NCBI GenBank assembly: GCA_964016885.1
Contig: OZ024741.1
Coordinates: 277,760,001 to 277,824,000, forward strand
Direction of reading: 5' to 3'
Origin: Eledone cirrhosa
Taxonomy: Eukaryota
Length of the DNA: 64,000 nucleotides
Within the stretch, counting starts at the first letter, position 1, and every line of letters begins with the position of its first letter. Position numbers and translations under genes: made by a program. Shown here in pieces: positions 6,001 through 57,428 of the stretch. Below the pieces are notes generated by a model. That model saw nothing but the letters and a program-made list of their open reading frames with translations. It did not search any database and was not told where the DNA came from.

Positions 6001-9000
6001 GCGGCGTGTTGTGTTCTTGGACTCACAATAATAAGGTCGAGGGTTTGATGCCTAGATCGGAGCGGCGTGTTGTGTTCTTGGACTCACAATAATAAGGTCG
6101 AGGTTGTGATGCCTGGACCGGAGCGGCGTGTTGTGTTCTTGGACTCACAATAATAAGGTCGAGGGTGTGATGCCTAGACCGGAGCGGCGTGTTGTGTTCT
6201 TGGACTCACAATAATAAGGTCGAGGGTGTGATGCCTGGATCGGAGCGGCGTGTTGTGTTCTTGGACTCACAATAATAAGGTCGAGGTTGTGATGACTAGA
6301 CCGGAGCGGCGTGTTGTGTTCTTGGACTCACAATAATAAGGTCGAGGGTGTGATGCCTGGATCGGAGCGGCGTGTTGTGTTCTTGGACTCACAATAATAA
6401 GGTCGAGGGTTTGATGCCTGGATCGGAGCGGCGTGTTGTGTTCTTGGACTCACAATAATAAGGTCGAGGGTGTGATGCCTGGACCGGAGCGGCGTGTTGT
6501 GTTCTTGGACTCACAATAATAAGGTCGAGGGTGTGATGCCTGGACCGGAGCGGCGTGTTGTGTTCTTGGACTCACAATAATAAGGTCGAGGGTGTGATGC
6601 CTGGACCGGAGCGGCGTGTTGTGTTCTTGGACTCACAATAATAAGGTCGAGGTTGTGATGACTAGACCGGAGCGGCGTGTTGTGTTCTTGGACTCACAAT
6701 AATAAGGTCGAGGGTTTGATGCCTAGATCGGAGCGGCGTGTTGTGTTCTTGGACTCACAATAATAAGGTCGAGGGTGTGATGCCTGGATCGGAGCGGCGT
6801 GTTGTGTTCTTGGACTCACAATAATAAGGTCGAGGTTGTGATGACTAGACCGGAGCGGCGTGTTGTGTTCTTGGACTCACAATAATAAGGTCGAGGGTGT
6901 GATGCCTGGACCGGAGCGGCGTGTTGTGTTCTTGGACTCACAATAATAAGGTCGAGGGTGTGATGCCTAGACCGGAGCGGCGTGTTGTGTTCTTGGACTC
7001 ACAATAATAAGGTCGAGGGTTTGATTCCTGGATCGGAGCGGCGTGTTGTGTTCTTGGACTCACAATAATAAGGTCGAGGGTGTGATGCCTGGACCGGAGC
7101 GGCGTGTTGTGTTCTTGGACTCACAATAATAAGGTCGAGGGTGTGATGCCTAGACCGGAGCGGCGTGTTGTGTTCTTGGACTCACAATAATAAGGTCGAG
7201 GGTTTGATTCCTGGACCGGAGCGGCGTGTTGTGTTCTTGGACTCACAATAATGAGGTCGAGGGTTTGATGCCTAGACCGGAGCGGCGTGTTGTGTTCTTG
7301 GACTCACAATAATAAGGTCGAGGGTTTGATTCCTGGACCGGAGCGGCGTGTTGTGTTCTTGGACTCACAATAATAAGGTCGAGGGTTTGATGCCTAGACC
7401 GGAGCGGCGTGTTGTGTTCTTGGACTCACAATAATAAGGTCGAGGGTGTGATGCCTAGACCGGAGCGGCGTGTTGTGTTCTTGGACTCACAATAATAAGG
7501 TCGAGGGTGTGATGCCTAGACCGGAGCGGCGTGTTGTGTTCTTGGACTCACAATAATAAGGTCGAGGGTTTGATGCCTAGACCGGAGCGGCGTGTTGTGT
7601 TCTTGGACTCACAATAATAAGGTCGAGGGTGTGATGCCTAGACCGGAGCGGCGTGTTGTGTTCTTGGACTCACAATAATAAGGTCGAGGGTGTGATGCCT
7701 AGACCGGAGCGGCGTGTTGTGTTCTTGGACTCACAATAATAAGGTCGAGGGTTTGATTCCTGGATCGGAGCGGCGTGTTGTGTTCTTGGACTCACAATAA
7801 TAAGGTCGAGGGTTTGATGCCTAGACCGGAGCGGCGTGTTGTGTTCTTGGACTCACAATAATAAGGTCGAGGGTTTGATGCCTAGACCGGAGCGGCGTGT
7901 TGTGTTCTTGGACTCACAATAATAAGGTCGAGGGTTTGATTCCTGGACCGGAGCGGCGTGTTGTGTTCTTGGACTCACAATAATAAGGTCGAGGGTTTGA
8001 TTCCTGGATCGGAGCGGCGTGTTGTGTTCTTGGACTCACAATAATAAGGTCGAGGGTTTGATTCCTGGACCGGAGCGGCGTGTTGTGTTCTTGGACTCAC
8101 AATAATAAGGTCGAGGGTGTGATGCCTAGACCGGAGCGGCGTGTTGTGTTCTTGGACTCACAATAATAAGGTCGAGGGTTTGATGCCTAGACCGGAGCGG
8201 CGTGTTGTGTTCTTGGACTCACAATAATAAGGTCGAGGGTTTGATGCCTTGATCGGAGCGGCGTGTTGTGTTCTTGGACTCACAATAATAAGGTCGAGGG
8301 TTTGATGCCTTGATCGGAGCGGCGTGTTGTGTTCTTGGACCTACAATAATAAGGTCGAGGGTGTGATGCCTAGACCGGAGCGGCGTGTTGTGTTCTTGGA
8401 CTCACAATAATAAGGTCGAGGGTTTGATGCCTTGATCGGAGCGGCGTGTTGTGTTCTTGGACCTACAATAATAAGGTCGAGGGTGTGATGCCTAGACCGG
8501 AGCGGCGTGTTGTGTTCTTGGACTCACAATAATAAGGTCGAGGGTTTGATGCCTAGACCGGAGCGGCGTGTTGTGTTCTTGGACTCACAATAATAAGGTC
8601 GAGGGTTTGATGCCTTGATCGGAGCGGCGTGTTGTGTTCTTGGACTCACAATAATAAGGTCGAGGTTGTGATGACTAGACCGGAGCGGCGTGTTGTGTTC
8701 TTGGACTCACAATAATAAGGTCGAGGGTGTGATGCCTGGACCGGAGCGGCGTGTTGTGTTCTTGGACTCACAATAATAAGGTCGAGGGTGTGATGCCTAG
8801 ACCGGAGCGGCGTGTTGTGTTCTTGGACTCACAATAATAAGGTCGAGGGTTTGATTCCTGGATCGGAGCGGCGTGTTGTGTTCTTGGACTCACAATAATA
8901 AGGTCGAGGGTTTGATGCCTAGACCGGAGCGGCGTGTTGTGTTCTTGGACTCACAATAATAAGGTCGAGGGTTTGATGCCTAGACCGGAGCGGCGTGTTG

Positions 9001-12000
9001 TGTTCTTGGACTCACAATAATAAGGTCGAGGGTTTGATGCCTAGACCGGAGCGGCGTGTTGTGTTCTTGGACTCACAATAATAAGGTCGAGGGTTTGATG
9101 CCTAGACCGGAGCGGCGTGTTGTGTTCTTGGACTCACAATAATAAGGTCGAGGGTGTGATGCCTAGACCGGAGCGGCGTGTTGTGTTCTTGGACTCACAA
9201 TAATAAGGTCGAGGGTTTGATGCCTAGACCGGAGCGGCGTGTTGTGTTCTTGGACTCACAATAATAAGGTCGAGGGTTTGATTCCTGGACCGGAGCGGCG
9301 TGTTGTGTTCTTGGACTCACAATAATAAGGTCGAGGGTTTGATGCCTAGACCGGAGCGGCGTGTTGTGTTCTTGGACTCACAATAATAAGGTCGAGGGTG
9401 TGATGCCTAGACCGGAGCGGCGTGTTGTGTTCTTGGACTCACAATAATAAGGTCGAGGGTTTGATGCCTAGACCGGAGCGGCGTGTTGTGTTCTTGGACT
9501 CACAATAATAAGGTCGAGGGTTTGATTCCTGGACCGGAGCGGCGTGTTGTGTTCTTGGACTCACAATAATAAGGTCGAGGGTTTGATGCCTAGACCGGAG
9601 CGGCGTGTTGTGTTCTTGGACTCACAATAATAAGGTCGAGGGTTTGATTCCTGGACCGGAGCGGCGTGTTGTGTTCTTGGACTCACAATAATAAGGTCGA
9701 GGGTTTGATGCCTAGACCGGAGCGGCGTGTTGTGTTCTTGGACTCACAATAATAAGGTCGAGGGTGTGATGCCTAGACCGGAGCGGCGTGTTGTGTTCTT
9801 GGACTCACAATAATAAGGTCGAGGGTTTGATGCCTGGACCGGAGCGGCGTGTTGTGTTCTTGGACTCACAATAATAAGGTCGAGGGTGTGATGCCTAGAC
9901 CGGAGCGGCGTGTTGTGTTCTTGGACTCACAATAATAAGGTCGAGGGTTTGATGCCTAGACCGGAGCGGCGTGTTGTGTTCTTGGACTCACAATAATAAG
10001 GTCGAGGGTGTGATGCCTAGACCGGAGCGGCGTGTTGTGTTCTTGGACTCACAATAATAAGGTCGAGGGTGTGATGCCTAGACCGGAGCGGCGTGTTGTG
10101 TTCTTGGACTCACAATAATAAGGTCGAGGGTGTGATGCCTAGACCGGAGCGGCGTGTTGTGTTCTTGGACTCACAATAATAAGGTCGAGGGTGTGATGCC
10201 TGGATCGGAGCGGCGTGTTGTGTTCTTGGACTCACAATAATAAGGTCGAGGGTTTGATTCCTGGACCGGAGCGGCGTGTTGTGTTCTTGGACTCACAATA
10301 ATAAGGTCGAGGTTGTGATGACTAGATCGGAGCGGCGTGTTGTGTTCTTGGACTCACAATAATAAGGTCGAGGGTTTGATTCCTGGACCGGAGCGGCGTG
10401 TTGTGTTCTTGGACTCACAATAATAAGGTCGAGGGTTTGATTCCTGGACCGGAGCGGCGTGTTGTGTTCTTGGACTCACAATAATAAGGTCGAGGGTGTG
10501 ATGCCTAGACCGGAGCGGCGTGTTGTGTTCTTGGACTCACAATAATAAGGTCGAGGGTTTGATTCCTGGATCGGAGCGGCGTGTTGTGTTCTTGGACTCA
10601 CAATAATAAGGTCGAGGGTTTGATTCCTGGATCGGAGCGGCGTGTTGTGTTCTTGGACTCACAATAATAAGGTCGAGGGTTTGATGCCTAGACCGGAGCG
10701 GCGTGTTGTGTTCTTGGACTCACAATAATAAGGTCGAGGGTGTGATGCCTGGATCGGAGCGGCGTGTTGTGTTCTTGGACTCACAATAATAAGGTCGAGG
10801 GTTTGATGCCTAGACCGGAGCGGCGTGTTGTGTTCTTGGACTCACAATAATAAGGTCGAGGGTTTGATTCCTGGATCGGAGCGGCGTGTTGTGTTCTTGG
10901 ACTCACAATAATAAGGTCGAGGGTTTGATGCCTAGACCGGAGCGGCGTGTTGTGTTCTTGGACTACAATAATAAGGTCGAGGGTTTGATGCCTAGACCGG
11001 AGCGGCGTGTTGTGTTCTTGGACTCACAATAATAAGGTCGAGGGTGTGATGCCTAGACCGGAGCGGCGTGTTGTGTTCTTGGACTCACAATAATAAGGTC
11101 GAGGGTTTGATTCCTGGATCGGAGCGGCGTGTTGTGTTCTTGGACTCACAATAATAAGGTCGAGGGTTTGATGCCTAGACCGGAGCGGCGTGTTGTGTTC
11201 TTGGACTCACAATAATAAGGTCGAGGGTTTGATGCCTAGACCGGAGCGGCGTGTTGTGTTCTTGGACTCACAATAATAAGGTCGAGGGTTTGATTCCTGG
11301 ACCGGAGCGGCGTGTTGTGTTCTTGGACTCACAATAATAAGGTCGAGGGTTTGATTCCTGGATCGGAGCGGCGTGTTGTGTTCTTGGACTCACAATAATA
11401 AGGTCGAGGGTTTGATTCCTGGACCGGAGCGGCGTGTTGTGTTCTTGGACTCACAATAATAAGGTCGAGGGTGTGATGCCTAGACCGGAGCGGCGTGTTG
11501 TGTTCTTGGACTCACAATAATAAGGTCGAGGGTTTGATGCCTAGACCGGAGCGGCGTGTTGTGTTCTTGGACTCACAATAATAAGGTCGAGGGTTTGATG
11601 CCTTGATCGGAGCGGCGTGTTGTGTTCTTGGACTCACAATAATAAGGTCGAGGGTTTGATGCCTTGATCGGAGCGGCGTGTTGTGTTCTTGGACCTACAA
11701 TAATAAGGTCGAGGGTGTGATGCCTAGACCGGAGCGGCGTGTTGTGTTCTTGGACTCACAATAATAAGGTCGAGGGTTTGATGCCTTGATCGGAGCGGCG
11801 TGTTGTGTTCTTGGACCTACAATAATAAGGTCGAGGGTGTGATGCCTAGACCGGAGCGGCGTGTTGTGTTCTTGGACTCACAATAATAAGGTCGAGGGTT
11901 TGATGCCTAGACCGGAGCGGCGTGTTGTGTTCTTGGACTCACAACAATAAGGTCGAGGGTTTGATGCCTTGATCGGAGCGGCGTGTTGTGTTCTTGGACT

Positions 12001-15000
12001 CACAATAATAAGGTCGAGGTTGTGATGACTAGACCGGAGCGGCGTGTTGTGTTCTTGGACTCACAATAATAAGGTCGAGGGTGTGATGCCTGGACCGGAG
12101 CGGCGTGTTGTGTTCTTGGACTCACAATAATAAGGTCGAGGGTGTGATGCCTAGACCGGAGCGGCGTGTTGTGTTCTTGGACTCACAATAATAAGGTCGA
12201 GGGTTTGATTCCTGGATCGGAGCGGCGTGTTGTGTTCTTGGACTCACAATAATAAGGTCGAGGGTTTGATGCCTAGACCGGAGCGGCGTGTTGTGTTCTT
12301 GGACTCACAATAATAAGGTCGAGGGTTTGATGCCTAGACCGGAGCGGCGTGTTGTGTTCTTGGACTCACAATAATAAGGTCGAGGGTTTGATGCCTAGAC
12401 CGGAGCGGCGTGTTGTGTTCTTGGACTCACAATAATAAGGTCGAGGGTTTGATGCCTAGACCGGAGCGGCGTGTTGTGTTCTTGGACTCACAATAATAAG
12501 GTCGAGGGTGTGATGCCTAGACCGGAGCGGCGTGTTGTGTTCTTGGACTCACAATAATAAGGTCGAGGGTTTGATGCCTAGACCGGAGCGGCGTGTTGTG
12601 TTCTTGGACTCACAATAATAAGGTCGAGGGTTTGATTCCTGGACCGGAGCGGCGTGTTGTGTTCTTGGACTCACAATAATAAGGTCGAGGGTTTGATGCC
12701 TAGACCGGAGCGGCGTGTTGTGTTCTTGGACTCACAATAATAAGGTCGAGGGTGTGATGCCTAGACCGGAGCGGCGTGTTGTGTTCTTGGACTCACAATA
12801 ATAAGGTCGAGGGTTTGATGCCTAGACCGGAGCGGCGTGTTGTGTTCTTGGACTCACAATAATAAGGTCGAGGGTTTGATTCCTGGACCGGAGCGGCGTG
12901 TTGTGTTCTTGGACTCACAATAATAAGGTCGAGGGTTTGATGCCTAGACCGGAGCGGCGTGTTGTGTTCTTGGACTCACAATAATAAGGTCGAGGGTTTG
13001 ATTCCTGGACCGGAGCGGCGTGTTGTGTTCTTGGACTCACAATAATAAGGTCGAGGGTTTGATGCCTAGACCGGAGCGGCGTGTTGTGTTCTTGGACTCA
13101 CAATAATAAGGTCGAGGGTGTGATGCCTAGACCGGAGCGGCGTGTTGTGTTCTTGGACTCACAATAATAAGGTCGAGGGTTTGATGCCTGGACCGGAGCG
13201 GCGTGTTGTGTTCTTGGACTCACAATAATAAGGTCGAGGGTGTGATGCCTAGACCGGAGCGGCGTGTTGTGTTCTTGGACTCACAATAATAAGGTCGAGG
13301 GTTTGATGCCTAGACCGGAGCGGCGTGTTGTGTTCTTGGACTCACAATAATAAGGTCGAGGGTGTGATGCCTAGACCGGAGCGGCGTGTTGTGTTCTTGG
13401 ACTCACAATAATAAGGTCGAGGGTGTGATGCCTAGACCGGAGCGGCGTGTTGTGTTCTTGGACTCACAATAATAAGGTCGAGGGTGTGATGCCTAGACCG
13501 GAGCGGCGTGTTGTGTTCTTGGACTCACAATAATAAGGTCGAGGGTGTGATGCCTGGATCGGAGCGGCGTGTTGTGTTCTTGGACTCACAATAATAAGGT
13601 CGAGGGTTTGATTCCTGGACCGGAGCGGCGTGTTGTGTTCTTGGACTCACAATAATAAGGTCGAGGTTGTGATGACTAGATCGGAGCGGCGTGTTGTGTT
13701 CTTGGACTCACAATAATAAGGTCGAGGGTTTGATTCCTGGACCGGAGCGGCGTGTTGTGTTCTTGGACTCACAATAATAAGGTCGAGGGTTTGATTCCTG
13801 GACCGGAGCGGCGTGTTGTGTTCTTGGACTCACAATAATAAGGTCGAGGGTGTGATGCCTAGACCGGAGCGGCGTGTTGTGTTCTTGGACTCACAATAAT
13901 AAGGTCGAGGGTTTGATTCCTGGATCGGAGCGGCGTGTTGTGTTCTTGGACTCACAATAATAAGGTCGAGGGTTTGATTCCTGGATCGGAGCGGCGTGTT
14001 GTGTTCTTGGACTCACAATAATAAGGTCGAGGGTTTGATGCCTAGACCGGAGCGGCGTGTTGTGTTCTTGGACTCACAATAATAAGGTCGAGGGTGTGAT
14101 GCCTGGATCGGAGCGGCGTGTTGTGTTCTTGGACTCACAATAATAAGGTCGAGGGTTTGATGCCTAGACCGGAGCGGCGTGTTGTGTTCTTGGACTCACA
14201 ATAATAAGGTCGAGGGTTTGATTCCTGGATCGGAGCGGCGTGTTGTGTTCTTGGACTCACAATAATAAGGTCGAGGGTTTGATGCCTAGACCGGAGCGGC
14301 GTGTTGTGTTCTTGGACTACAATAATAAGGTCGAGGGTTTGATGCCTAGACCGGAGCGGCGTGTTGTGTTCTTGGACTCACAATAATAAGGTCGAGGGTG
14401 TGATGCCTGGACCGGAGCGGCGTGTTGTGTTCTTGGACTCACAATAATAAGGTCGAGGGTTTGATTCCTGGACCGGAGCGGCGTGTTGTGTTCTTGGACT
14501 CACAATAATAAGGTCGAGGGTTTGATTCCTGGATCGGAGCGGCGTGTTGTGTTCTTGGACTCACAATAATAAGGTCGAGGGTTTGATTCCTGGACCGGAG
14601 CGGCGTGTTGTGTTCTTGGACTCACAATAATAAGGTCGAGGGTGTGATGCCTAGACCGGAGCGGCGTGTTGTGTTCTTGGACTCACAATAATAAGGTCGA
14701 GGGTTTGATGCCTAGACCGGAGCGGCGTGTTGTGTTCTTGGACTCACAATAATAAGGTCGAGGGTTTGATTCCTGGACCGGAGCGGCGTGTTGTGTTCTT
14801 GGACTCACAATAATAAGGTCGAGGGTTTGATTCCTGGATCGGAGCGGCGTGTTGTGTTCTTGGACTCACAATAATAAGGTCGAGGGTTTGATTCCTGGAC
14901 CGGAGCGGCGTGTTGTGTTCTTGGACTCACAATAATAAGGTCGAGGGTGTGATGCCTAGACCGGAGCGGCGTGTTGTGTTCTTGGACTCACAATAATAAG

Positions 15001-16752
15001 GTCGAGGGTTTGATGCCTAGACCGGAGCGGCGTGTTGTGTTCTTGGACTCACAATAATAAGGTCGAGGTTGTGATGCCTGGACCGGAGCGGCGTGTTGTG
15101 TTCTTGGACTCACAATAATAAGGTCGAGGGTTTGATGCCTTGATCGGAGCGGCGTGTTGTGTTCTTGGACCTACAATAATAAGGTCGAGGGTGTGATGCC
15201 TAGACCGGAGCGGCGTGTTGTGTTCTTGGACTCACAATAATAAGGTCGAGGGTTTGATGCCTAGACCGGAGCGGCGTGTTGTGTTCTTGGACTCACAATA
15301 ATAAGGTCGAGGGTTTGATGCCTTGATCGGAGCGGCGTGTTGTGTTCTTGGACCTACAATAATAAGGTCGAGGGTGTGATGCCTAGACCGGAGCGGCGTG
15401 TTGTGTTCTTGGACTCACAATAATAAGGTCGAGGGTTTGATGCCTAGACCGGAGCGGCGTGTTGTGTTCTTGGACTACAATAATAAGGTCGAGGTTGTGA
15501 TGACTAGACCGGAGCGGCGTGTTGTGTTCTTGGACTCACAATAATAAGGTCGAGGGTTTGATGCCTGGACCGGAGCGGCGTGTTGTGTTCTTGGACTCAC
15601 AATAATAAGGTCGAGGGTGTGATGCCTGGACCGGAGCGGCGTGTTGTGTTCTTGGACTCACAATAATAAGGTCGAGGGTGTGATGACTAGACCGGAGCGG
15701 CGTGTTGTGTTCTTGGACTCACAATAATAAGGTCGAGGGTTTGATGCCTGGACCGGAGCGGCGTGTTGTGTTCTTGGACTCACAATAATAAGGTCGAGGG
15801 TTTGATTCCTGGACCGGAGCGGCGTGTTGTGTTCTTGGACTCACAATAATAAGGCCGAGGGTTTGATGCCTGGACCGGAGCGGCGTGTTGTGTTCTTGGA
15901 CTCACAATAATAAGGTCGAGGGTTTGATTCCTGGACCGGAGCGGCGTGTTGTGTTCTTGGACTCACAATAATAAGGTCGAGGGTTTGATGACTGGACCGG
16001 AGCGGCGTGTTGTGTTCTTGGACTCACAATAATAAGGTCGAGGGTGTGATGCCTGGACCGGAGCGGCGTGTTGTGTTCTTGGACTCACAATAATAAGGTC
16101 GAGGGTGTGATGACTAGACCGGAGCGGCGTGTTGTGTTCTTGGACTCACAATAATAAGGTCGAGGGTTTGATGCCTGGACCGGAGCGGCGTGTTGTGTTC
16201 TTGGACTCACAATAATAAGGTCGAGGGTTTGATTCCTGGACCGGAGCGGCGTGTTGTGTTCTTGGACTCACAATAATAAGGCCGAGGGTGTGATGCCTAG
16301 ACCGGAGCGGCGTGTTGTGTTCTTGGACTCACAATAATAAGGTCGAGGGTTTGATGCCTGGACCGGAGCGGCGTGTTGTGTTCTTGGACTCACAATAATA
16401 AGGTCGAGGGTTTGATTCCTGGACCGGAGCGGCGTGTTGTGTTCTTGGACTCACAATAATAAGGTCGAGGGTTTGATGACTAGATCGGAGCGGCGTGTTG
16501 TGTTCTTGGACTCACAATAATAAGGTCGAGGGTTTGATGACTAGATCGGAGCGGCGTGTTGTGTTCTTGGACTCACAATAATAAGGTCGAGGGTTTGATG
16601 ACTAGATCGGAGCGGCGTGTTGTGTTCTTGGACTCACAATAATAAGGTCGAGGGTGTGATGCCTAGACCGGAGCGGCGTGTTGTGTTCTTGGACTCACAA
16701 TAATAAGGTCGAGGGTGTGATGCCTGGACAGGGGTAGAGTGTGTGTTCTTGA
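1..16752 (+). repeat. 61-bp satellite tandem array (~274 monomers; starts before the window), derived from a tRNA/CORE-SINE head
   Basis: Monomer GGACTCACAATAATAAGGTCGAGGGT(T/G)TGAT(G/T)CCT(G/A)GA(C/T)CGGAGCGGCGTGTTGTGTTCTT repeats continuously, with occasional 60-bp monomers (GGACTACAA). The last unit reads on into GTGTTCTTGAGCAAAATCTTTTATTTTAC. Confidence 0.98.
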
Positions 16753-22821: not shown

Positions 22822-23411
22822 ATATATATATATACAGTGTACCACCGACATTCACGGTACTGCTTATTCAGGGAATTTTCCTTATAACATAACTAATAAT
22901 TGTTCGTGGAAGCCACCATATATTCGCGGAATCGTAAATATCTTCGGCGATCTTTTTAATAGCTTTTTTCGTGGCAATATATATATTTTTTTGACGCTAA
23001 ATTATTACAACTAGCAGAAAAACCACCCTTCGGGAGGTTTTCTGCTGACATGTGTAGTGTGTATATTGATATTATACGCAAGTATATATACATGTAGATA
23101 TGATACATCAAATAAAATGGTAATTGACAATATACACAGAAATTAAACGAAGACTGCGTTACACTCTCTTATGTAATCAGTAACGTAATCCATGATACAT
23201 TAAAAAAAAGACCATATTATATATAAACTGCATTAGGAGAAAATTAGTGACGGAAATATATGAATGTTTATTTATCGCTAACCGGAAGTGTTGACATTTG
23301 AAAATGTTAAAGAAGTGAATCTTTAAATAAGCAATAAAATATATTTAATCAAAAGCTACGAAATTTAGCAGATAAATTATGTAATATTCATTCATTATTT
23401 ATTCAAAGTAA

Positions 23412-23599
23412 AGGGCGGTGGATTGGCAGTATCGGTAGAGGGTCGGACGCCATGCTTTGACGCATAGAGTTACGGCCCTTGCCATTCTGAGTTCAAATCC
23501 CGCCGAGGTTAACTTTGCCTTTCATCCTTACGAGGTCGATAAAATAAAGTACCAGTAATACACTGGTTAATTGCTGGCCTTGTGCCAAAAGTAGAAACA
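23412..23599 (+). mobile_element. SINE with 18-bp target-site duplication
   Basis: ATTATTTATTCAAAGTAA at 23394-23411 and 23600-23617; the empty site is present in the inverted mate (~30490). Confidence 0.92.
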
Positions 23600-23849
23600 A
23601 TTATTTATTCAAAGTAATCCAACTTATTTTACAAACGGGATAAAAAAACATTATATTCTGGATGCAGTCCCGCACTCCTTTCTTTGTTATAGTTAAGATA
23701 TACAGTATTTCCCGGTCTATAGGACGCTCCTTTATTGTTTTTACGTTATATTTTGACATTTATATGCATTTTTATGGACCACGTCCTATATTCGCGGGTG
23801 CTCTAGGAAAATAATCCCCCGCGAACACCGGGTGATAACTGTAAATATA

Positions 23850-24200
23850 TTGGAAAGGCACCTAAGCAATGGCAATCGGGAGGGATAATCCCAATTTTCA
23901 AACAGGAAGACAAGAGAGATTGTTCGAATTACAGAGAGATTTTGTTAAGCCTCCTCGGTAAGGTCTATACTAAGTGTCTATACTTGTCGAATCCAAGCTA
24001 GCTGATGAACAGTGTCGTTTTCGCCCCGGATACAGCACAGCTGACCAAATATTCACAGTGCAACAGGTCTGCGAGAAATAGTGGAAGTATTGCCAAGAAG
24101 TATATTGTTGCTTTGTCGACCTTGAAAAGGTATATAACCGCATTCCTCGGGACCTGCTGTGGAAGATTTTGCAGAAGTATGGGATCGATAATCAGCTTCT
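23850..24200 (+). pseudogene. RTE-clade LINE reverse transcriptase fragment
   Basis: Frameshifted translation PKQWQSGGIIPIFKQEDKRDCSNYR...EQCRFRPGYSTADQIF...FVDLEKVYNRIPRDLLWKILQKYGI (N-terminal RT domains). Confidence 0.88.
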
Positions 24201-24416
24201 TGCTGATATACGTCTCAGCATGGCCTCAGCCTGTCGGGTGGGGCACGTAATAGAGTAATATAGGTATATATATATATATATATTATGTGTGTGTGTGTGT
24301 GTGTGTGTGTTAGGTAATTCCGAAGAAAAGGCAATGGAAAAAAGTGTGCTCTATGTATAGAACAGAGCTATATAATTAGATTTTAAATCTCATTTCATAT
24401 TTTCTATTTTTAACAT

Positions 24417-24484
24417 CTCTGTCTGATGAACGATCCAGACGTATATTAACATTGTCTAAGATTCAGAAACCTTTGGTAATGGAG
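24417..24484 (+). ncRNA. Type I hammerhead ribozyme (family C)
   Basis: CTCTGT-CTGATGA-stem II (GATC.AGAC...GTCT..GAT)-GAAA-CC(TTT)GG-TA|ATGGAG; GUA cleavage triplet. Confidence 0.8.
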
Positions 24485-24510
24485 TAGTTATATATTGTGT
24501 TGTTCACTTT

Positions 24511-24587
<77 letters not shown>

Positions 24588-25742: not shown

Positions 25743-25906
25743 GGAAACTATATTTATAAAACCATATTTATTCTATTATATATATTTCAAGGGTACCAAA
25801 ACTTTGGTACGCTTTCAAAACTTGTCGAGTGCTCTGAATCAGTTATAAACATTTATATTTGTTGAATTACCAACAAATTGAATATCCGTTTTACTTATAT
25901 ATATAT

Positions 25907-26267
25907 ATATTAATTCAAAATATTAATAAATATAGACATTCATGTAATCAAATATATTTTATTATATATATTTCGGCGGTACTGTGCTGTTTCCTCAGTA
26001 CGTCCTCATCAGATAAAATATATAAATTGATGTATGACATACCTCAACTGTGCTGATCGTTCAATTCCAGTCTTGGCAGTCAAGACTGGAATTACTGCCA
26101 AGACTGGAATTGAACCATCAGCACAGTTGAGGTATGTCATACATCAATTTATATATTTTATCTGATGAAGACGTACTGAGGAAACAGCACAGTACCTCCG
26201 GAATATATATAATAAAATATATTTGATTACATGAATGTCTATATTTATTAATATTTTGAATTAATAT
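25907..26267. repeat. Fold-back palindrome with a hammerhead in each arm (family E)
   Basis: Centre ~26087 with a short duplicated CAAGACTGGAATT at the junction. Confidence 0.92.
25952..26023 (-). ncRNA. Type I hammerhead ribozyme (family E; mutated mate at 26151-26222 +)
   Basis: rc: ATATATTTTAT-CTGATGA-GG..GTACTG...CAGTAC..CC-GAAA-TATATA-TA|ATAAAATATAT; 11-bp stem I and palindromic stem III. Confidence 0.82.
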
Positions 26268-26359
26268 TAATAACTCCAGAAAACTTTTTTGTTGAGTGCT
26301 TCTAATCTATTGTAAAACTATATTCATTGATTAATCAATGAACCTTGTTTAACTTTTGG

Positions 26360-26394
<35 letters not shown>

Positions 26395-26402
<8 letters not shown>

Positions 26403-26785
26403 TAAAAGGAATTCCAACTTTGTCTGATTCACTCGTTTTATTTACAATCCTTTGAAATTTATAATGGTATTAGAATGAAATAGTATGGTAGAATATTAAA
26501 TGTTAAGTGTTAATTGAACAAGTACTTTCATGCTTTCGCAATCTTCAGGTTCATATTATGTGGTGACAGTCAAGTTTGCAATTTTCAACTGTTGAAAATT
26601 GCAAACTTGACTGTCACCGCACATTATGAACCTGAAGATTGCGAAAGCATGAAAGTACTTGTTCAATTAACACTTAACATTTAATATTCTACCATACTAT
26701 TTCATTCTAATACCATTATAAATTTTAAAGGATTGTAAATAAAACGAGTGAATCAGACAAAGTTGGAATTCCTTTTATTAATATA
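26395..26785. repeat. Fold-back palindrome with a hammerhead in each arm (family F)
   Basis: Near-perfect inverted arms with a 1-nt loop at 26590. Confidence 0.95.
26627..26665 (+). ncRNA. Minimal type I hammerhead (family F; mate 26515-26553 -)
   Basis: TGAAC-CTGAAGA-TTGC(GAAA)GCAT-GAAA-GTAC-TT|GTTCA; palindromic stem III AGTACT. Confidence 0.85.
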
Positions 26786-27951: not shown

Positions 27952-28017
<66 letters not shown>

Positions 28018-28024
<7 letters not shown>

Positions 28025-28510
28025 CGTATACATACTTATATTTAGGTATCAGCCGTACTAAGAGTGAGAAATGAAATTTCGTTTCATTCTTTTCCATTTA
28101 TCGTTTCGGTATGCCCGGCCAACTAACTCACTCGATATGCAAATTAGGCTGCTCAGCCGTTAATATGCATAAGGAAAGTATATACTTTCACCGTTCAATC
28201 ATCTGACAGAAAGGTATACGATGCTGACGATAGATAATAAGCTTGAAACTAGTACATCGTTCCTGTGTCAGTGTTGAAATAAAGGGCGACGATGGTTGCC
28301 GAGCACTGTACGGCGTAATTCGGGCTGTTTGTTTACAAACAAACCGAACATTATAATAAATGTTCTGCAAACCCATACGTACATATATATATATATGTGG
28401 GCATGTATATATATATATATATACATAGTACTGTGCATCTGTACACATATATGTATGTACGTATACATACTTATATTTAGGTATCAGCCGTACTAAGAGT
28501 GAGAAATGAA
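28018..28510 (+). mobile_element. Diverged copy (~435-bp period) of the 422-bp retrozyme family A
   Basis: Terminal ~55 bp repeated; hammerhead at 28218-28260: ACGATG-CTGACGA-...-GAAA-CTAG-TA|CATCGT. Confidence 0.85.
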
Positions 28511-28568
28511 AAAAGGTTCAGGACCCTATTTGCCTGTTTGTTAAAATTTATATATATATATATATATA

Positions 28569-29481: not shown

Positions 29482-29485
<4 letters not shown>
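28569..29485. repeat. Inverted-arm element (arms 28569-28927 / 29044-29404) with degenerate hammerheads (family H)
   Basis: ~360-bp reverse-complement arms; CTGAAGA-GAG...CTC-GAAA at 28804-28864 (-). Confidence 0.88.
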
Positions 29486-29520
<35 letters not shown>

Positions 29521-29526
<6 letters not shown>

Positions 29527-29788
29527 AAAATGAACAACACAATATATAACTACTCCATTACCAAAGGTTTCTGGATCCTAGACAATGTTAATATACGTCT
29601 GGATCGTTCATCAGACAGAGATGTTAAAAATAGAAAATATGAAATGAGATTTAAAATCTAATTAAATACTTCTGTTCTATACATAGAGCACTCTTTTTTC
29701 CGTTGCTTTTTCTTCGGAATTACCTAACGCACACACACACGCGCGCGCGCGCGCGTATATATATATATATACACGCGCGCGCGCGCGC

Positions 29789-29828
<40 letters not shown>

Positions 29829-31032
29829 ATATTACTCTATTACGTTCCCCTCCCGACAGGCTGAGGCCATGCTGAGACGTATATCAGCAAGAAGCTGATT
29901 ATCGATCCCATACTCCTGCAAAATCTTCCACAGCAGGTCCCGAGGAATGCGGTTATATACCTTTTCAAGGTCGACAAAGCAACAATATACTTCTTGGCAA
30001 TACTTCCACTATTTCTCGAAGACCTGTTGCACTGTGAATATTTGGTCAGCTGTGCTGTATACGGGGCGAAAACGACACTGTTCATCAGCTAGCTTGGATT
30101 CGACAAGTATAGACACTTAGTATAGACCTTACCGAGGAGGCTTAACAAAATCCCTCTGTAATTGGAACAATCTCTCTTGTCTTCCTGTTTGAAAATTGGG
30201 ATTATCCCTCCCGATTGCCATTGCTTAGGTGCCTTTCCAATATATTTACAGTTATCACCCGGTGTTCGCGGGGGATTATGTTCCTAGAGCACCCGCGTAG
30301 AGTGAAAAACCGCAAATATTGGACGTGTTCCATAAAAATGCTTATAAATGTCAAAATATAACGTAAAATATAATAAAGGAGCGTCCTCTAGACCGGGAAA
30401 TACTGTATATCCTAACTATAACAAAGAAAGGAGTGCGGGACTGCATCCAGAATATAATTTTTTTTATCCCGTTTGTAAAATAAGTTTTATTACTTTGAAT
30501 AAATAATGAATGAATATTACATAATTGTTCTGCTAAATTTCGTAGCTTTTGATTAAATATATTTTATTCCTTATTTAAAGATTCACTTCTTTAAAATTTT
30601 CAAATGTCAACACTTCCGGTTAGCGATCGCTTAAATAAACATTCATATATTTCTGTCACTAATTTTCTCCTAATGCAGTTTATATATAATATGGTCTTTT
30701 TTTTAATGTATCATGGATTACGTTATTGATTACATAAGAGAGTGTAACGCAGTCTTCGTTCAATTTCTGTGTATATTGTCAATTACCATTTTATTCGATG
30801 TATCATATCTACATGCATATATACTTGCGTATAATATCAATATACACACTACACATGTCAGCAGAAAACCTCCCGAAGGGTGGTTTTTCTGCTAGTTGTA
30901 ATAATTTAGCGTCAAAAATATATATATTGCCACGAAAAAAGCTATTAAAAAAATTGCCGAAGATATTTACGATTCCGCGAATATATGGTGGGTTCCACGA
31001 ACAATTATTAGTTATGTTATAAGGAAGATTCC
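29521..31032 (-). repeat. Right arm of the inverted duplication (hammerhead C at 29553-29620, RTE fragment ~29890-30240)
   Basis: Reverse complement of 22872-24516, lacking the SINE. Confidence 0.95.
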
Positions 31033-41599: not shown

Positions 41600-41671
<72 letters not shown>

Positions 41672-41674
<3 letters not shown>

Positions 41675-42028
41675 TTTCTGAATTTGTTTAGCAACATTCT
41701 TTATCTGAAAACGTGTGTTGAAACCGATATTGTTATACTTTTGGAGGGTCATGTTGCCAATAAGAAACACACGCACCACAGGCGTAGGACAGAACAAAGG
41801 AGAGTCACAAAAACAAAGAAAAGAATCCCAGTCACTGAAGAGGTCACAGAATGTGTGACGAAAGAACTTTGACAATATATAAACAATCATCTGGTTGTGG
41901 AACCAACCAACCAACCGGAAATTTATAAATTCCTAAATTTATAAATTTATTATAATAAATTGAAGTGAAAGCAACTGGTGCGCGTGTTTCTTATTGGCAA
42001 CATGACCCTCCCAAAGTATAACAATATA
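41672..42028. mobile_element. Asymmetric fold-back element, family J (hammerhead 41830-41873 +)
   Basis: AGTCA-CTGAAGA-GGTCAC...GTGAC-GAAA-GAAC-TT|TGAC; inverted ends 41727-41778 / 41975-42027; homologous to 56848-57428. Confidence 0.88.
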
Positions 42029-45130: not shown

Positions 45131-46526
<1,396 letters not shown>

Positions 46527-46591
46527 ACACACGTTTTCAGATAAAGAATCTTGCTAAACAAATTCAGAAACGAAATATATATATATATATA

Positions 46592-48359: not shown

Positions 48360-48801
<442 letters not shown>

Positions 48802-48913
48802 TTATTGTTCTGCAACCCCATGCATTGAACCACAATGTTACTAAGACAAAACCTATATATTTGCTGGCATTGATATGCATCTGTATGTATATAAATGTTA
48901 CTAGATATAAATT

Positions 48914-48950
<37 letters not shown>

Positions 48951-48955
<5 letters not shown>

Positions 48956-51900
48956 GGAAAAAATGAAACGATATTTCATTTCCCACTCTTAGTACGGCTG
49001 TTACTTAAATATAAGTATGTACACGTACATACATATATGTATACCGACGTACAGTAGTATGTATATATATATATACATACATGCACACATATATATATGC
49101 ACGTATGGATTCACCGAACATTTATTATAATGCTCGGTGTGTTTGTAAACAAACATCCCGTATTAAGCCGTAGTGTCTAGCAACCACCGTTGCTCGTTTG
49201 TTCAACACTGACAAAGGAACGCTGTACTAGTTTCAAGCTTGTTAGCTATCGTCAGCAACGTATACCTTCCTGCCAGATTGTTGAACGTATATACTTACCT
49301 TATGCATATTAACGGCTGAGTAGCCCAATTTGCATATCGAGTGGGTTAATCGGCCGGGTGCACCGAAAACGATAAACGGAAAAAATGAAACGATATTTCA
49401 TTTCCCACTCTTAGTACGGCTGTTACTTAAATATAAGTATGTACACGTACATACATATATGTATACCGACGTACAGTAGTATGTATATATATATATACAT
49501 ACATGCACACATATATATATGCACGTATGGATTCACCGAACATTTATTATAATGCTCGGTGTGTTTGTAAACAAACATCCCGTATTAAGCCGTAGTGTCT
49601 AGCAACCACCGTTGCTCGTTTGTTCAACACTGACAAAGGAACGCTGTACTAGTTTCAAGCTTGTTAGCTATCGTCAGCAACGTATACCTTCCTGCCAGAT
49701 TGTTGAACGTATATACTTACCTTATGCATATTAACGGCTGAGTAGCCCAATTTGCATATCGAGTGGGTTAATCGGCCGGGTGCACCGAAATCGATAAACG
49801 GAAAAAATGAAACGATATTTCATTTCCCACTCTTAGTACGGCTGTTACTTAAATATAAGTATGTACACGTACATACATATATGTATACCGACGTACAGTA
49901 GTATGTATATATATATATACATACATGCACACATATATATATGCACGTATGGATTCACCGAACATTTATTATAATGCTCGGTGTGTTTGTAAACAAACAT
50001 CCCGTATTAAGCCGTAGTGTCTAGCAACCACCGTTGCTCGTTTGTTCAACACTGACAAAGGAACGCTGTACTAGTTTCAAGCTTGTTAGCTATCGTCAGC
50101 AACGTATACCTTCCTGCCAGATTGTTGAACGTATATACTTACCTTATGCATATTAACGGCTGAGTAGCCCAATTTGCATATCGAGTGGGTTAATCGGCCG
50201 GGTGCACCGAAAACGATAAACGGAAAAAATGAAACGATATTTCATTTCCCACTCTTAGTACGGCTGTTACTTAAATATAAGTATGTACACGTACATACAT
50301 ATATGTATACCGACGTACAGTAGTATGTATATATATATATACATACATGCACACATATATATATGCACGTATGGATTCACCGAACATTTATTATAATGCT
50401 CGGTGTGTTTGTAAACAAACATCCCGTATTAAGCCGTAGTGTCTAGCAACCACCGTTGCTCGTTTGTTCAACACTGACAAAGGAACGATGTTTGTTTACA
50501 AACACACCGAGCATTATAATAAATGTTCGGTGAATCCATACGTGCATATATATATGTGTGCATGTATGTATATATATATATACATACTACTGTACGTCGG
50601 TATACATATATGTATGTACGTGTACATACTTATATTTAAGTAACAGCCGTACTAAGAGTGGGAAATGAAATATCGTTTCATTTTTTCCGTTTATCGTTTT
50701 CGGTGCACCCGGCCGATTAACCCACTCGATATGCAAATTGGGCTACTCAGCCGTTAATATGCATAAGGTAAGTATATACGTTCAACAATCTGGCAGGAAG
50801 GTATACGTTGCTGACGATAGCTAACAAGCTTGAAACTAGTACAGCGTTCCTTTGTCAGTGTTGAACAAACGAGCAACGGTGGTTGCTAGACACTACGGCT
50901 TAATACGGGATGTTTGTTTACAAACACACCGAGCATTATAATAAATGTTCGGTGAATCCATACGTGCATATATATATGTATGTATATATATATATACATA
51001 CTACTGTACGTCGGTATACATATATGTATGTACGTGTACATACTTATATTTAAGTAACAGCCGTACTAAGAGTGGGAAATGAAATATCGTTTCATTTTTT
51101 CCATTTATCGTTTTCGGTGCACCCGGCCGATTAACCTACTCGATATGCAAATTGGGCTACTCAGCCGTTAATATGCATAAGGTAAGTATATACGTTCAAC
51201 AATCTGGCAGGAAGGTATACGTTGCTGACGATAGCTAACAAGCTTGAAACTAGTACAGCGTTCCTTTGTCAGTGTTGAACAAACGAGCAACGGTGGTTGC
51301 TAGACACTACGGCTTAATACGGGATGTTTGTTTACAAACACACCGAGCATTATAATAAATGTTCGGTGAATCCATACGTGCATATATATATGTGTGCATG
51401 TATGTATATATATATATACATACTACTGTACGTCGGTATACATATATGTATGTACGTGTACATACTTATATTTAAGTAACAGCCGTACTAAGAGTGGGAA
51501 ATGAAATATCGTTTCATTTTTTCCGTTTATCGTTTTCGGTGCACCCGGCCGATTAACCCACTCGATATGCAAATTGGGCTACTCAGCCGTTAATATGCAT
51601 AAGGTAAGTATATACGTTCAACAATCTGGCAGGAAGGTATACGTTGCTGACGATAGCTAACAAGCTTGAAACTAGTACAGCGTTCCTTTGTCAGTGTTGA
51701 ACAAACGAGCAACGGTGGTTGCTAGACACTACGGCTTAATACGGGATGTTTGTTTACAAACACACCGAGCATTATAATAAATGTTCGGTGAATCCATACG
51801 TGCATATATATATGTATGTATATATATATATACATACTACTGTACGTCGGTATACATATATGTATGTACGTGTACATACTTATATTTAAGTAACAGCCGT

Positions 51901-52300
51901 ACTAAGAGTGGGAAATGAAATATCGTTTCATTTTTTCCGTTTATCGTTTTCGGTGCACCCGGCCGATTAACCCACTCGATATGCAAATTGGGCTACTCAG
52001 CCGTTAATATGCATAAGGTAAGTATATACGTTCAACAATCTGGCAGGAAGGTATACGTTGCTGACGATAGCTAACAAGCTTGAAACTAGTACAGCGTTCC
52101 TTTGTCAGTGTTGAACAAACGAGCAACGGTGGTTGCTAGACACTACGGCTTAATACGGGATGTTTGTTTACAAACACACCGAGCATTATAATAAATGTTC
52201 GGTGAATCCATACGTGCATATATATATGTGTGCATGTATGTATATATATATATACATACTACTGTACGTCGGTATACATATATGTATGTACGTGTACATA

Positions 52301-52304
<4 letters not shown>
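48951..52304. mobile_element. 422-bp retrozyme-like tandem array folded into a 3.35-kb palindrome (family A)
   Basis: 3.6 units on - strand (48951-50487), then 4.3 units on + strand; hammerheads at 49219, 49641, 50063 (-) and 50805, 51219, 51641, 52055 (+); (TA)n on both sides. Confidence 0.95.
50805..50847 (+). ncRNA. Minimal type I hammerhead (family A, 7 copies in the array)
   Basis: ACGTTG-CTGACGA-TAGC(taacaa)GCTT-GAAA-CTAG-TA|CAGCGT; palindromic stem III ACTAGT and a GUA site. Confidence 0.92.
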
Positions 52305-52383
<79 letters not shown>

Positions 52384-56815: not shown

Positions 56816-56847
<32 letters not shown>

Positions 56848-56851
<4 letters not shown>

Positions 56852-57428
56852 CGTTTCTGAATTTGTTTAGCAAGATTCTTTATCTGAAATCGTGTGTTGA
56901 AACCGATATTGTTATACTTTGGGAGGGTCATGTTGCCAATAAGAAACACACGCACCAGTTGCTTTCACTTCAATTTATTATATATTAATAAATTTATAAA
57001 TTTACAAATCTACAAACTTATAAATTTCTGGTTGGTTGGTTGGTTGGTTCCACAACCAGATAGTTGTTTATATATAGTCATAGTCCTTTCGTCACACACT
57101 CTGTGACCTCTTCAGTGACTGGGGCTTCCTTTCTTTGTTTCTGTGCCTTTCCTTTCTTCTGTCCTGCGCGTAGGACAGAAGAAAGGAAAGGCACAGAAAC
57201 AAAGAAAGGAAGCCCCAGTCACTGAAGAGGTCACAGAGTGTGTGACGAAAGGACTATGACTATATATAAACAACTATCTGGTTGTGGAACCAACCAACCA
57301 ACCAGAAATTTATAAGTTTGTAGATTTGTAAATTTATAAATTTATTAATATATAATAAATTGAAGTGAAAGCAACTGGTGCGTGTGTTTCTTATTGGCAA
57401 CATGACCCTCCCAAAGTATAACAATATA
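56848..57428. mobile_element. Fold-back palindromic element, family J, with hammerheads at 57076-57120 (-) and 57217-57261 (+)
   Basis: Arms 56906-57428 with centre 57168/9; AGTCA-CTGAAGA-GGTCAC...GTGAC-GAAA-GGAC-TA|TGACT; (TA)n flanks. Confidence 0.93.

What the first reader, a model, noticed from the sequence alone, without database searches (positions are those of the whole stretch)
48951..52304. 3.35-kb palindromic retrozyme multimer whose inversion point falls at the ribozyme cleavage site
Seen: the left arm ends ...AAAGGAACG at 50487, where the unit would continue CTG|TAC, i.e. 3 nt from the predicted GUA cleavage site of the minus-strand RNA. It then switches, through GCTGT/GATGT near-microhomology, to the opposite strand ~65 bp back. 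Inference: reverse transcriptase copied a multimeric or circular RNA, ran off the self-cleaved 5' end, snapped back and continued. That would be a genomic footprint of in vivo cleavage.
Basis: partly seen in the sequence, partly recalled or inferred. Interest (0 to 1): 0.75.

Follow-up and report, generated by a model that had tools for sequence, protein, structure and literature searches.

The report
Two-armed retrozyme insertion, Penelope-type ends
This 3.36-kb back-to-back array is one young copy of an abundant repeat that carries a predicted self-cutting RNA motif; its inversion point lies 3 bases from the predicted cut site, probably by chance, and the fixed outer ends seen across the family suggest that a Penelope-type transposon enzyme likely copied uncut or circular RNA onto both sides of a DNA break at once.

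Summary
The palindrome is real: 3.65 and 4.3 copies of a 422-nt unit, head-to-head in (TA)n. Each full unit has a type I hammerhead fold with covariation. The left arm stops 3 nt short of the predicted cut. The proposed mechanism is not supported. In 140 other loci, 5' ends are scattered: 5 of 187 lie near the cut site (6.5 expected), and arms read through it 234 times. A genome-wide pattern count shows no clear excess. The arms are not mirror copies: the right arm is longer and holds two private 414-nt units, and 27 of 61 other pairs cannot be self-copies. The outer ends are fixed instead: one arm ends at unit base ~275 and its partner at ~216 (64 of 79 uncut partners). An ORF-bearing Penelope-like element in this genome shows the same layout. 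Best reading: two cDNAs primed at two internal RNA sites and joined by microhomology. A small run-off class at the cut site is not excluded (post hoc p=0.049). This scan reported the same pattern earlier for other families in this genome.

The parts
48917..48952 (.). (TA)n target microsatellite, left flank
   Evidence: overlaps the arm end by ATA
48950..50487 (-). Left arm: 3.65 units, all 422-nt type; RNA-sense 3' end at unit base 275 (long, tail-bearing end) at 48950; 5' end at unit base 4 at 50487
48950..49008 (-). ~59-nt tail (unit bases 217-275) present at this end only
   Evidence: same arrangement as the 60-nt tail of the ORF-bearing Penelope-like element in L170
49209..49275 (-). Type I hammerhead motif, predicted cut 49225|49224
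49631..49697 (-). Type I hammerhead motif, predicted cut 49647|49646
50053..50119 (-). Type I hammerhead motif, predicted cut 50069|50068
50487..50491 (.). Head-to-head junction: unit base 4 (antisense) joined to base 68 (sense); 1 exact shared base, 4 of 5 with one mismatch; a fourth cut site would lie at 50491|50490
50487..52307 (+). Right arm: 4.3 units in the order 422-type, 414, 422, 414, 422-type; 3' end at unit base ~212-216 (short end; TATAT ambiguity 52303-52307)
50791..50857 (+). Type I hammerhead motif, predicted cut 50841|50842; further copies cut at 51255|51256, 51677|51678, 52091|52092
50842..51255 (+). 414-nt unit (8-nt deletion in the TA-rich hairpin), with two extra substitutions
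   Evidence: the variant occurs only twice in the assembly, both here
51678..52091 (+). Second 414-nt unit
52303..52380 (.). (TA)n target microsatellite, right flank

Best explanation
This is a young insertion of a non-autonomous, hammerhead-bearing tandem repeat (an animal non-LTR retrozyme) that was likely put in place by a Penelope-like element (PLE) protein, which likely primed two separate cDNAs from the two ends of a cut (TA)n target. Shown: head-to-head layout, both outer ends in (TA)n, one arm ending at unit base ~275 and the other at ~216 across the family, scattered inner ends with short microhomology, arms of independent length that share a haplotype. Inferred: a GIY-YIG endonuclease cuts both strands of AT-rich DNA. 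One 3' end starts reverse transcription at the distal internal site (275), the other at the proximal site (216), which leaves a ~59-nt tail on one arm only. Each cDNA runs a random distance through intact hammerhead sites, so the template was a ligated circle or an uncleaved multimer. The two cDNA 3' ends then anneal on 1-4 bases and are filled in. The junction's closeness to the cut site at this locus is most likely chance.
For: Outer-end rule: 34 of 38 uncut partners of 275-ended arms end at 209-219, and 30 of 41 uncut partners of 216-ended arms end at 268-275; only 3 pairs have two ends of the same type. Independent arms: the 275 arm is longer in 31 of 61 pairs and the 216 arm in 30; 27 of 61 pairs fit neither arm being a copy of the other; in 5 pairs each arm holds unit bases absent from the other, one pair sharing none. 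Microhomology of at least 1 nt in 34 of 36 insert-free junctions (chance 45%), at least 3 nt in 18 of 36 (chance 7%). No stop at the cut site: 5 of 187 ends in 418-10 against 6.5 expected, 234 read-throughs; genome-wide rate ratio to two control sites 1.22 raw (95% CI 0.89-1.67), 1.0 after dropping indel look-alikes. Arms share variants (0.32 against 0.06 in permutations, maximum 0.125; 11 of 48 pairs share a variant seen in no other sampled insertion), and whole arrays carry one private haplotype in every unit (L035, L090, L093). An ORF-bearing element with a weak GIY-YIG match and a hammerhead pLTR has the same layout, with a 60-nt tail on one arm (L170). In vitro a PLE protein cuts and extends both strands, starts at two internal sites that bound the tail, and does not need hammerhead cleavage (PMC11167929).
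Against: No autonomous partner sharing sequence with the unit was found; the L170 pLTR matches it only over 12 AT-rich bases. 60 of the 140 loci show no inverted partner or no usable anchor arm at the thresholds used (45 single arms of at least 88% identity; 23 of these are followed by TA repeats), and 15 of 79 uncut partners end elsewhere. Ends exactly at the cut site are mostly first-pass (13 of 16 against 26 of 48 controls, one-sided p=0.049, post hoc; 12 of 16, p=0.12, in the unselected first 30 hits), as cleaved linear monomers would give. Haplotype sharing could partly reflect subfamily age or later gene conversion. In this locus the two arms differ (414-nt units), which needs a second template or a later deletion plus duplication. 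In PMC11167929 the start sites did not differ between strands and were not homologous to the target, whereas both ends here have TA-like microhomology. Circle and uncleaved multimer are not told apart.
Confidence: 0.75

Rival explanations
1. Same two-ended insertion, but at this locus the left cDNA really did run off a hammerhead-cleaved 5' end (base 1) and annealed through GCTG(T)/GATG(T) to the second cDNA, the mismatch being repaired to the right arm.
For: The imperfect match extends exactly to bases 1/422. Ends at the cut site elsewhere are mostly first-pass (13 of 16), and several share partner positions (base ~12 or ~270), which hints at a minor class of cleaved templates.
Against: No overall excess of ends at the site. 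This arm first reads through three intact sites, unlike the first-pass class. TGT occurs often in the unit, so such near-matches arise easily.
Confidence: 0.13
2. One reading: one reverse transcriptase ran off the cleaved end, snapped back on its own cDNA and copied it; later deletion and an 836-nt duplication changed the right arm.
For: The junction geometry (base 4 to base 68) is fold-back-like. PMC3846280 reads palindromic PLE junctions as self-priming. The 414-nt unit is private to this locus, so later change is possible; some arrays do expand after insertion (L049/L050, L142).
Against: A self-copy would end at 275, not at the family's other fixed site 216. 27 of 61 sampled pairs cannot be self-copies, and 5 have mutually exclusive sequence. 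There is no clustering at the cut site. It needs two extra events at this locus.
Confidence: 0.06
3. DNA-level origin: a tandem satellite array was inverted later by recombination or replication fold-back, or the palindrome is a chimeric-read assembly artefact.
For: Short-read contigs did not confirm the junction either way. Long arrays can change after insertion.
Against: A fold-back read would mirror the flank and the variants; the arms and flanks differ, and the two outer ends obey a rule seen in 64 other insertions. Head-to-head junctions are the norm in the sample.
Confidence: 0.04

Closest known systems
Animal non-LTR retrozymes (Cervera and de la Pena 2020, PMC7229834, passages read; Li, Clavereau, Pollet, bioRxiv 10.64898/2026.07.22.740005, parts 1-3 of 5 read)
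   Same: Tandem, non-coding, low-GC units of a few hundred bases, each with a type I hammerhead with a short palindromic helix III; a U-U mismatch at the base of helix II as described for axolotl HHR_Amex2; highly self-paired unit (z = -8.1); co-occurs with PLEs.
   Different: Unit slightly longer (422 nt) than the 170-400 nt circles reported. Head-to-head two-armed insertions with fixed 275/216 ends were not in the passages read. Expression, cleavage and circles are not shown for this family.
Inverted insertions of endonuclease-bearing Penelope-like elements (Craig et al. 2021, PMC8557442; Arkhipova et al. 2013, PMC3846280; passages read)
   Same: Inverted 5'-truncated copy next to the 5' end, head-to-head; tail on one end only; (TA)n targets that hide any target-site duplication; junction palindromes or microhomology.
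   Different: No ORF; both arms are multimers of one unit; tail ~59 nt rather than 30-40 nt. The data favour two independently primed arms over the self-priming on an antisense template proposed in PMC3846280.
PAc Poseidon element in vitro (Frangieh et al. 2024, PMC11167929, parts 1-2 of 4 read)
   Same: Two adjacent internal start sites that bound the tail; both target strands cut and extended; AT-rich targets; hammerhead cleavage not needed, unprocessed RNA used.
   Different: In vitro no strand preference for either start site was seen, whereas these insertions nearly always pair one long with one short end; PAc start sites are not homologous to the target.
L1 twin priming (recalled; PMC2837659 seen as search listing only)
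   Same: Two primers on opposite target strands give an inverted arm joined head-to-head with microhomology.
   Different: In L1 the second primer anneals at a variable site and the two parts are nearly contiguous on one RNA; here both start sites are fixed and the arms overlap freely.

Membership tests
Animal non-LTR retrozyme | Tandem non-coding units of about 150-450 bp | tested here: met
   422/414-nt units
Animal non-LTR retrozyme | Type I hammerhead in each unit | tested here: met
   7 of 7 full units here; core motif intact in 427 of 481 hammerhead regions in fetched loci (overlapping loci not merged); covariation; no Rfam hit
Animal non-LTR retrozyme | Dispersed multicopy family | tested here: met
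   1830 exact 36-nt core matches; 389 and 1193 exact end-plus-TA matches
Animal non-LTR retrozyme | Self-cleavage of the RNA | not testable with these tools
   Needs an in vitro assay or RNA end mapping
Animal non-LTR retrozyme | Abundant linear and circular RNA in tissues | tested here: inconclusive
   No RNA holder listed; not evidence either way
PLE-mobilised insertion (EN+ Penelope-like machinery) | Head-to-head inverted 5'-truncated arm | tested here: met
   This locus; 82 of 136 anchored loci have an adjacent inverted partner
PLE-mobilised insertion (EN+ Penelope-like machinery) | Two fixed 3' ends with a tail on one end | tested here: met
   64 of 79 uncut partners end at the other site
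PLE-mobilised insertion (EN+ Penelope-like machinery) | AT-rich or (TA)n target | tested here: met
   Both flanks here; partner ends run into TA repeats in nearly all rows (anchor ends were selected for TA)
PLE-mobilised insertion (EN+ Penelope-like machinery) | Sequence shared with the pLTR of an autonomous PLE | tested here: inconclusive
   No match to the one pLTR compared directly (L170) and none to a PLE among fetched loci; no genome-wide search for a partner was run; one arm abuts a PLE ORF in L174
Autonomous Penelope-like element | RT plus GIY-YIG ORF | tested here: not met
   No stop-free stretch of 170 aa or more passing the composition filter in the array
Footprint of hammerhead cleavage (5' ends at the cut site) | Junction and truncation ends cluster at base 1 | tested here: not met
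   a small first-pass class is not excluded

The most novel reading that the evidence does not exclude
A PLE dimer loads one small hammerhead-made RNA circle and rolls round it from both ends of a double-strand cut, one subunit always starting at base 275 and the other at base 216. The family's hundreds of palindromes are then a genomic record of rolling-circle reverse transcription of retrozyme circles, and of how Penelope elements make inverted copies and one-sided tails without self-priming. A rare class of first-pass arms that stop at base 1 would record the cleaved linear monomer.
Probability: 0.35. Interest if true: 0.7.

Novelty: new variant of a known kind. Interest (0 to 1): 0.45.

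Why it matters
How PLEs form inverted copies and one-sided tails is called undefined in PMC8557442, and PLE-driven copying of retrozyme circles is proposed but not shown (PMC7229834). This family gives a countable test set. It argues for two-ended priming at two fixed RNA sites, against self-priming, and shows that the hammerhead cut site does not set insertion boundaries. The specific claim that this junction records in vivo cleavage does not hold up, so the locus itself is an ordinary member of its family.

Tried and rejected
DNA-mode search of the own genome with the unit returned nothing (very common words are skipped), so patterns were used. Run search: no RNA holder listed. Laying short-read contigs on the junction was inconclusive because contigs in this repeat are ~31-80 nt and an older subfamily mimics four junction bases. 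A pile-up of arm lengths at one unit (circle completion) was tested and not found: 17 observed, 13.0 expected, p=0.16. Arm lengths correlate weakly at best (rho 0.23, p=0.07). The 414-nt unit is not a circulating subfamily (0 of 160 fetched loci, 2 copies genome-wide), so a common heterodimer template was rejected. No autonomous partner was identified. A scripted tally of the printed end letters was not run; those tallies (14 and 4 indel look-alikes, 15 of 52 against 18 of 91 ends at the last two positions, p=0.15) are counts by eye. Literature searches for the two-armed retrozyme layout listed no paper whose title or abstract start describes it; subscription journals are not covered. No supplements were read; Fig. 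S2 of PMC11167929, Fig. S9 of PMC7229834 and the bioRxiv supplements may bear on novelty.

Full report
Observation. The array is as described. I number the 422-nt unit from the first base after the predicted hammerhead cut (window 51256). The left arm (48950-50487) reads antisense on + and runs from unit base 275 at the left (TA)n to base 4 at the junction. The right arm (50487-52307) reads sense from base 68 to base ~216 at the right (TA)n. So the two RNA 5' sides meet in the middle and both RNA 3' sides face the target DNA. The hammerhead is type I, with an extended stem I, a 4-bp stem II closed by U-U, and a 2-bp stem III around a palindromic CTAG. On 17 chosen family copies (7 recurrent variants, 10 divergent) 93% of cells pair and 7 of 21 pairs change on both sides; 0 of 500 shuffles reach this, and slid controls pair 33-44% (related sequences can exceed the shuffles). 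Rfam gives no hit at gathering score. Cleavage itself is predicted, not shown.

The arms are not mirror images. The left arm has only 422-nt units; the right arm alternates 422 and 414, and the 414 variant occurs twice in the assembly, both here. A snap-back copy of the left cDNA from base 68 could be at most ~1474 nt and would end at base 275; the right arm is 1821 nt and ends at 216. The same facts argue against a fold-back read artefact. Short-read contigs did not settle the junction.

The family. The hammerhead core has 1830 exact matches. I anchored on the two outer ends: 389 exact matches for the 275 end plus TA and 1193 for the 216 end plus TA. I fetched 80 and 60 of the first 100 listed of each (contig C1 and the start of C2). 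Of 79 anchored 275 arms, 40 have an adjacent inverted partner; 2 were cut by the fetch and 34 of the other 38 end at 209-219. Of 57 anchored 216 arms, 42 have a partner; 1 was cut and 30 of 41 end at 268-275. Three pairs have two ends of one type. Three pairs with an internal break (L159, L163, L164) were dropped from length and hazard counts. In the remaining 61 pairs either arm may be longer (31 against 30), 27 fit neither arm being a copy of the other, and in 5 each arm holds at least 25 unit bases missing from the other. The arms are therefore copied independently from a template, each starting at its own fixed site.

Test of the cleavage-site claim. Among 187 arm 5' ends (arms at least 88% identical; this locus not included), 5 fall in bases 418-10 against 6.5 expected from bases at risk, and 0 fall in 1-5 against 2.2. 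For inversion junctions alone it is 3 of 142 against 4.9. Arms pass the cut site 234 times, and 136 of 187 pass it at least once. Genome-wide patterns that catch ends in a 7-base window gave 66 hits at the cut site and 44 and 51 at two control sites. Scaled by the frequency of each 26-mer in fetched loci (310, 286, 258), the ratio is 1.22 (0.89-1.67), or 1.0 (0.71-1.41) after dropping 14 and 4 indel look-alikes judged by eye. One result leans the other way: ends at bases 422-2 with an intact 3' end are first-pass in 13 of 16 cases against 26 of 48 controls (p=0.049, post hoc), which a cleaved linear monomer would produce. That class would be small, and this locus (fourth pass) is not typical of it. 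By chance, 2.4-7% of insertions have an end within 5-15 nt of the cut.

Junction and template. Of 60 junctions, 36 have no inserted bases; 34 of these share at least 1 nt (chance 45%) and 18 at least 3 nt (chance 7%); 24 have 1-101 extra bases. The two arms of one insertion share variants far more than arms of different insertions (0.32 against 0.06, 48 pairs, 2000 permutations), and 11 of 48 share a variant found in no other sampled insertion. Several young arrays carry one private haplotype in every unit of both arms. This fits rolling round a monomer circle, but also an uncleaved transcript of a uniform array; arm lengths show no peak at one unit.

The enzyme (inferred). L170 holds a 4.2-kb head-to-head element with RT-like and GIY-YIG-like coding sequence (Pfam GIY-YIG E=4e-4, below cut-off), a hammerhead in its 3' repeat, (TA)n at both ends and a 60-nt tail on one arm only. 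That is the layout of this retrozyme. PMC8557442 (passages) describes inverted 5'-truncated copies, one-sided tails and (TA)n targets as PLE hallmarks. PMC11167929 (parts 1-2) shows a PLE protein cutting and extending both strands from two internal RNA sites that bound the tail, independent of hammerhead cleavage. PMC3846280 (passages) explains head-to-head junctions by self-priming on an antisense template; the non-overlapping arms here do not fit that. The partner element was not identified.

Comparison and novelty. The repeat meets the sequence criteria for an animal non-LTR retrozyme (PMC7229834, passages; PMC4209133, passages; bioRxiv 10.64898/2026.07.22.740005, parts 1-3). Expression, cleavage and circles are untested. 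Eight searches listed no paper on two-armed retrozyme insertions or the one-long-one-short rule. Earlier notes of this scan describe the same layout for 310-, 468- and 500-nt families in this genome; I had written my reading before opening them, they are unchecked, and none matched this unit by sequence. The host was not identified.

Verdict. Observation confirmed; retrozyme identity supported; run-off and snap-back at the cleaved end not supported. Best explanation: two-ended PLE-type priming on uncleaved or circular RNA (0.75). Interest 0.45.

Noticed in passing
window 45234-46578: 2.7 copies of a 483-nt unit from another abundant family (2185 candidates; head-to-head copies with fixed ends 109 nt apart; a hammerhead-like core on the minus strand) are joined directly to the last 54 nt of the tail of the L170-type Penelope pLTR, in the opposite sense, between two (TA)n tracts. 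It may be one insertion whose two arms came from different RNAs.
   Followed up: partly
window 56846-57427 and 41667-42027: Head-to-head pairs of the L170-type PLE pLTR with hammerheads; one arm carries the 60-nt tail, the other does not.
   Followed up: partly
window 27955-28511: Older copy of the same 422-nt family, about 85% identical, 1.3 units.
   Followed up: partly
window 25900-26280 and 26400-26780: Two more short head-to-head palindromes with hammerhead-like cores on both arms, from other families.
   Followed up: no
window 22872-24552 and 29485-31032: A 1.7-kb inverted pair about 5 kb apart, 90-96% identical, with a hammerhead-like core near the TA-flanked inner ends.
   Followed up: no
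window 48452-48802: 72-nt inverted repeat pair around 207 nt, directly left of the array, starting at a (TA)n tract.
   Followed up: no
window 1-16751: 61-bp satellite, about 275 copies, 96% matches.
   Followed up: no
L174:501-1762: A 216-ended arm of this family is joined, in the same sense, to the GIY-YIG-side coding sequence of another PLE family (97% to L091): a template switch onto a candidate partner RNA, or an insertion into it.
   Followed up: partly
L049-L050, L142, L156: Arrays of 10-36 units at 91-94% identity, L142 with a strict two-unit period: insertions of this family grow into local satellites.
   Followed up: partly
L225, L228 and L229, L230: Independent insertions with similar junctions (antisense end at base 422 joined to sense base 11-12 or 269-270), with either outer end on either arm.
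   Followed up: partly
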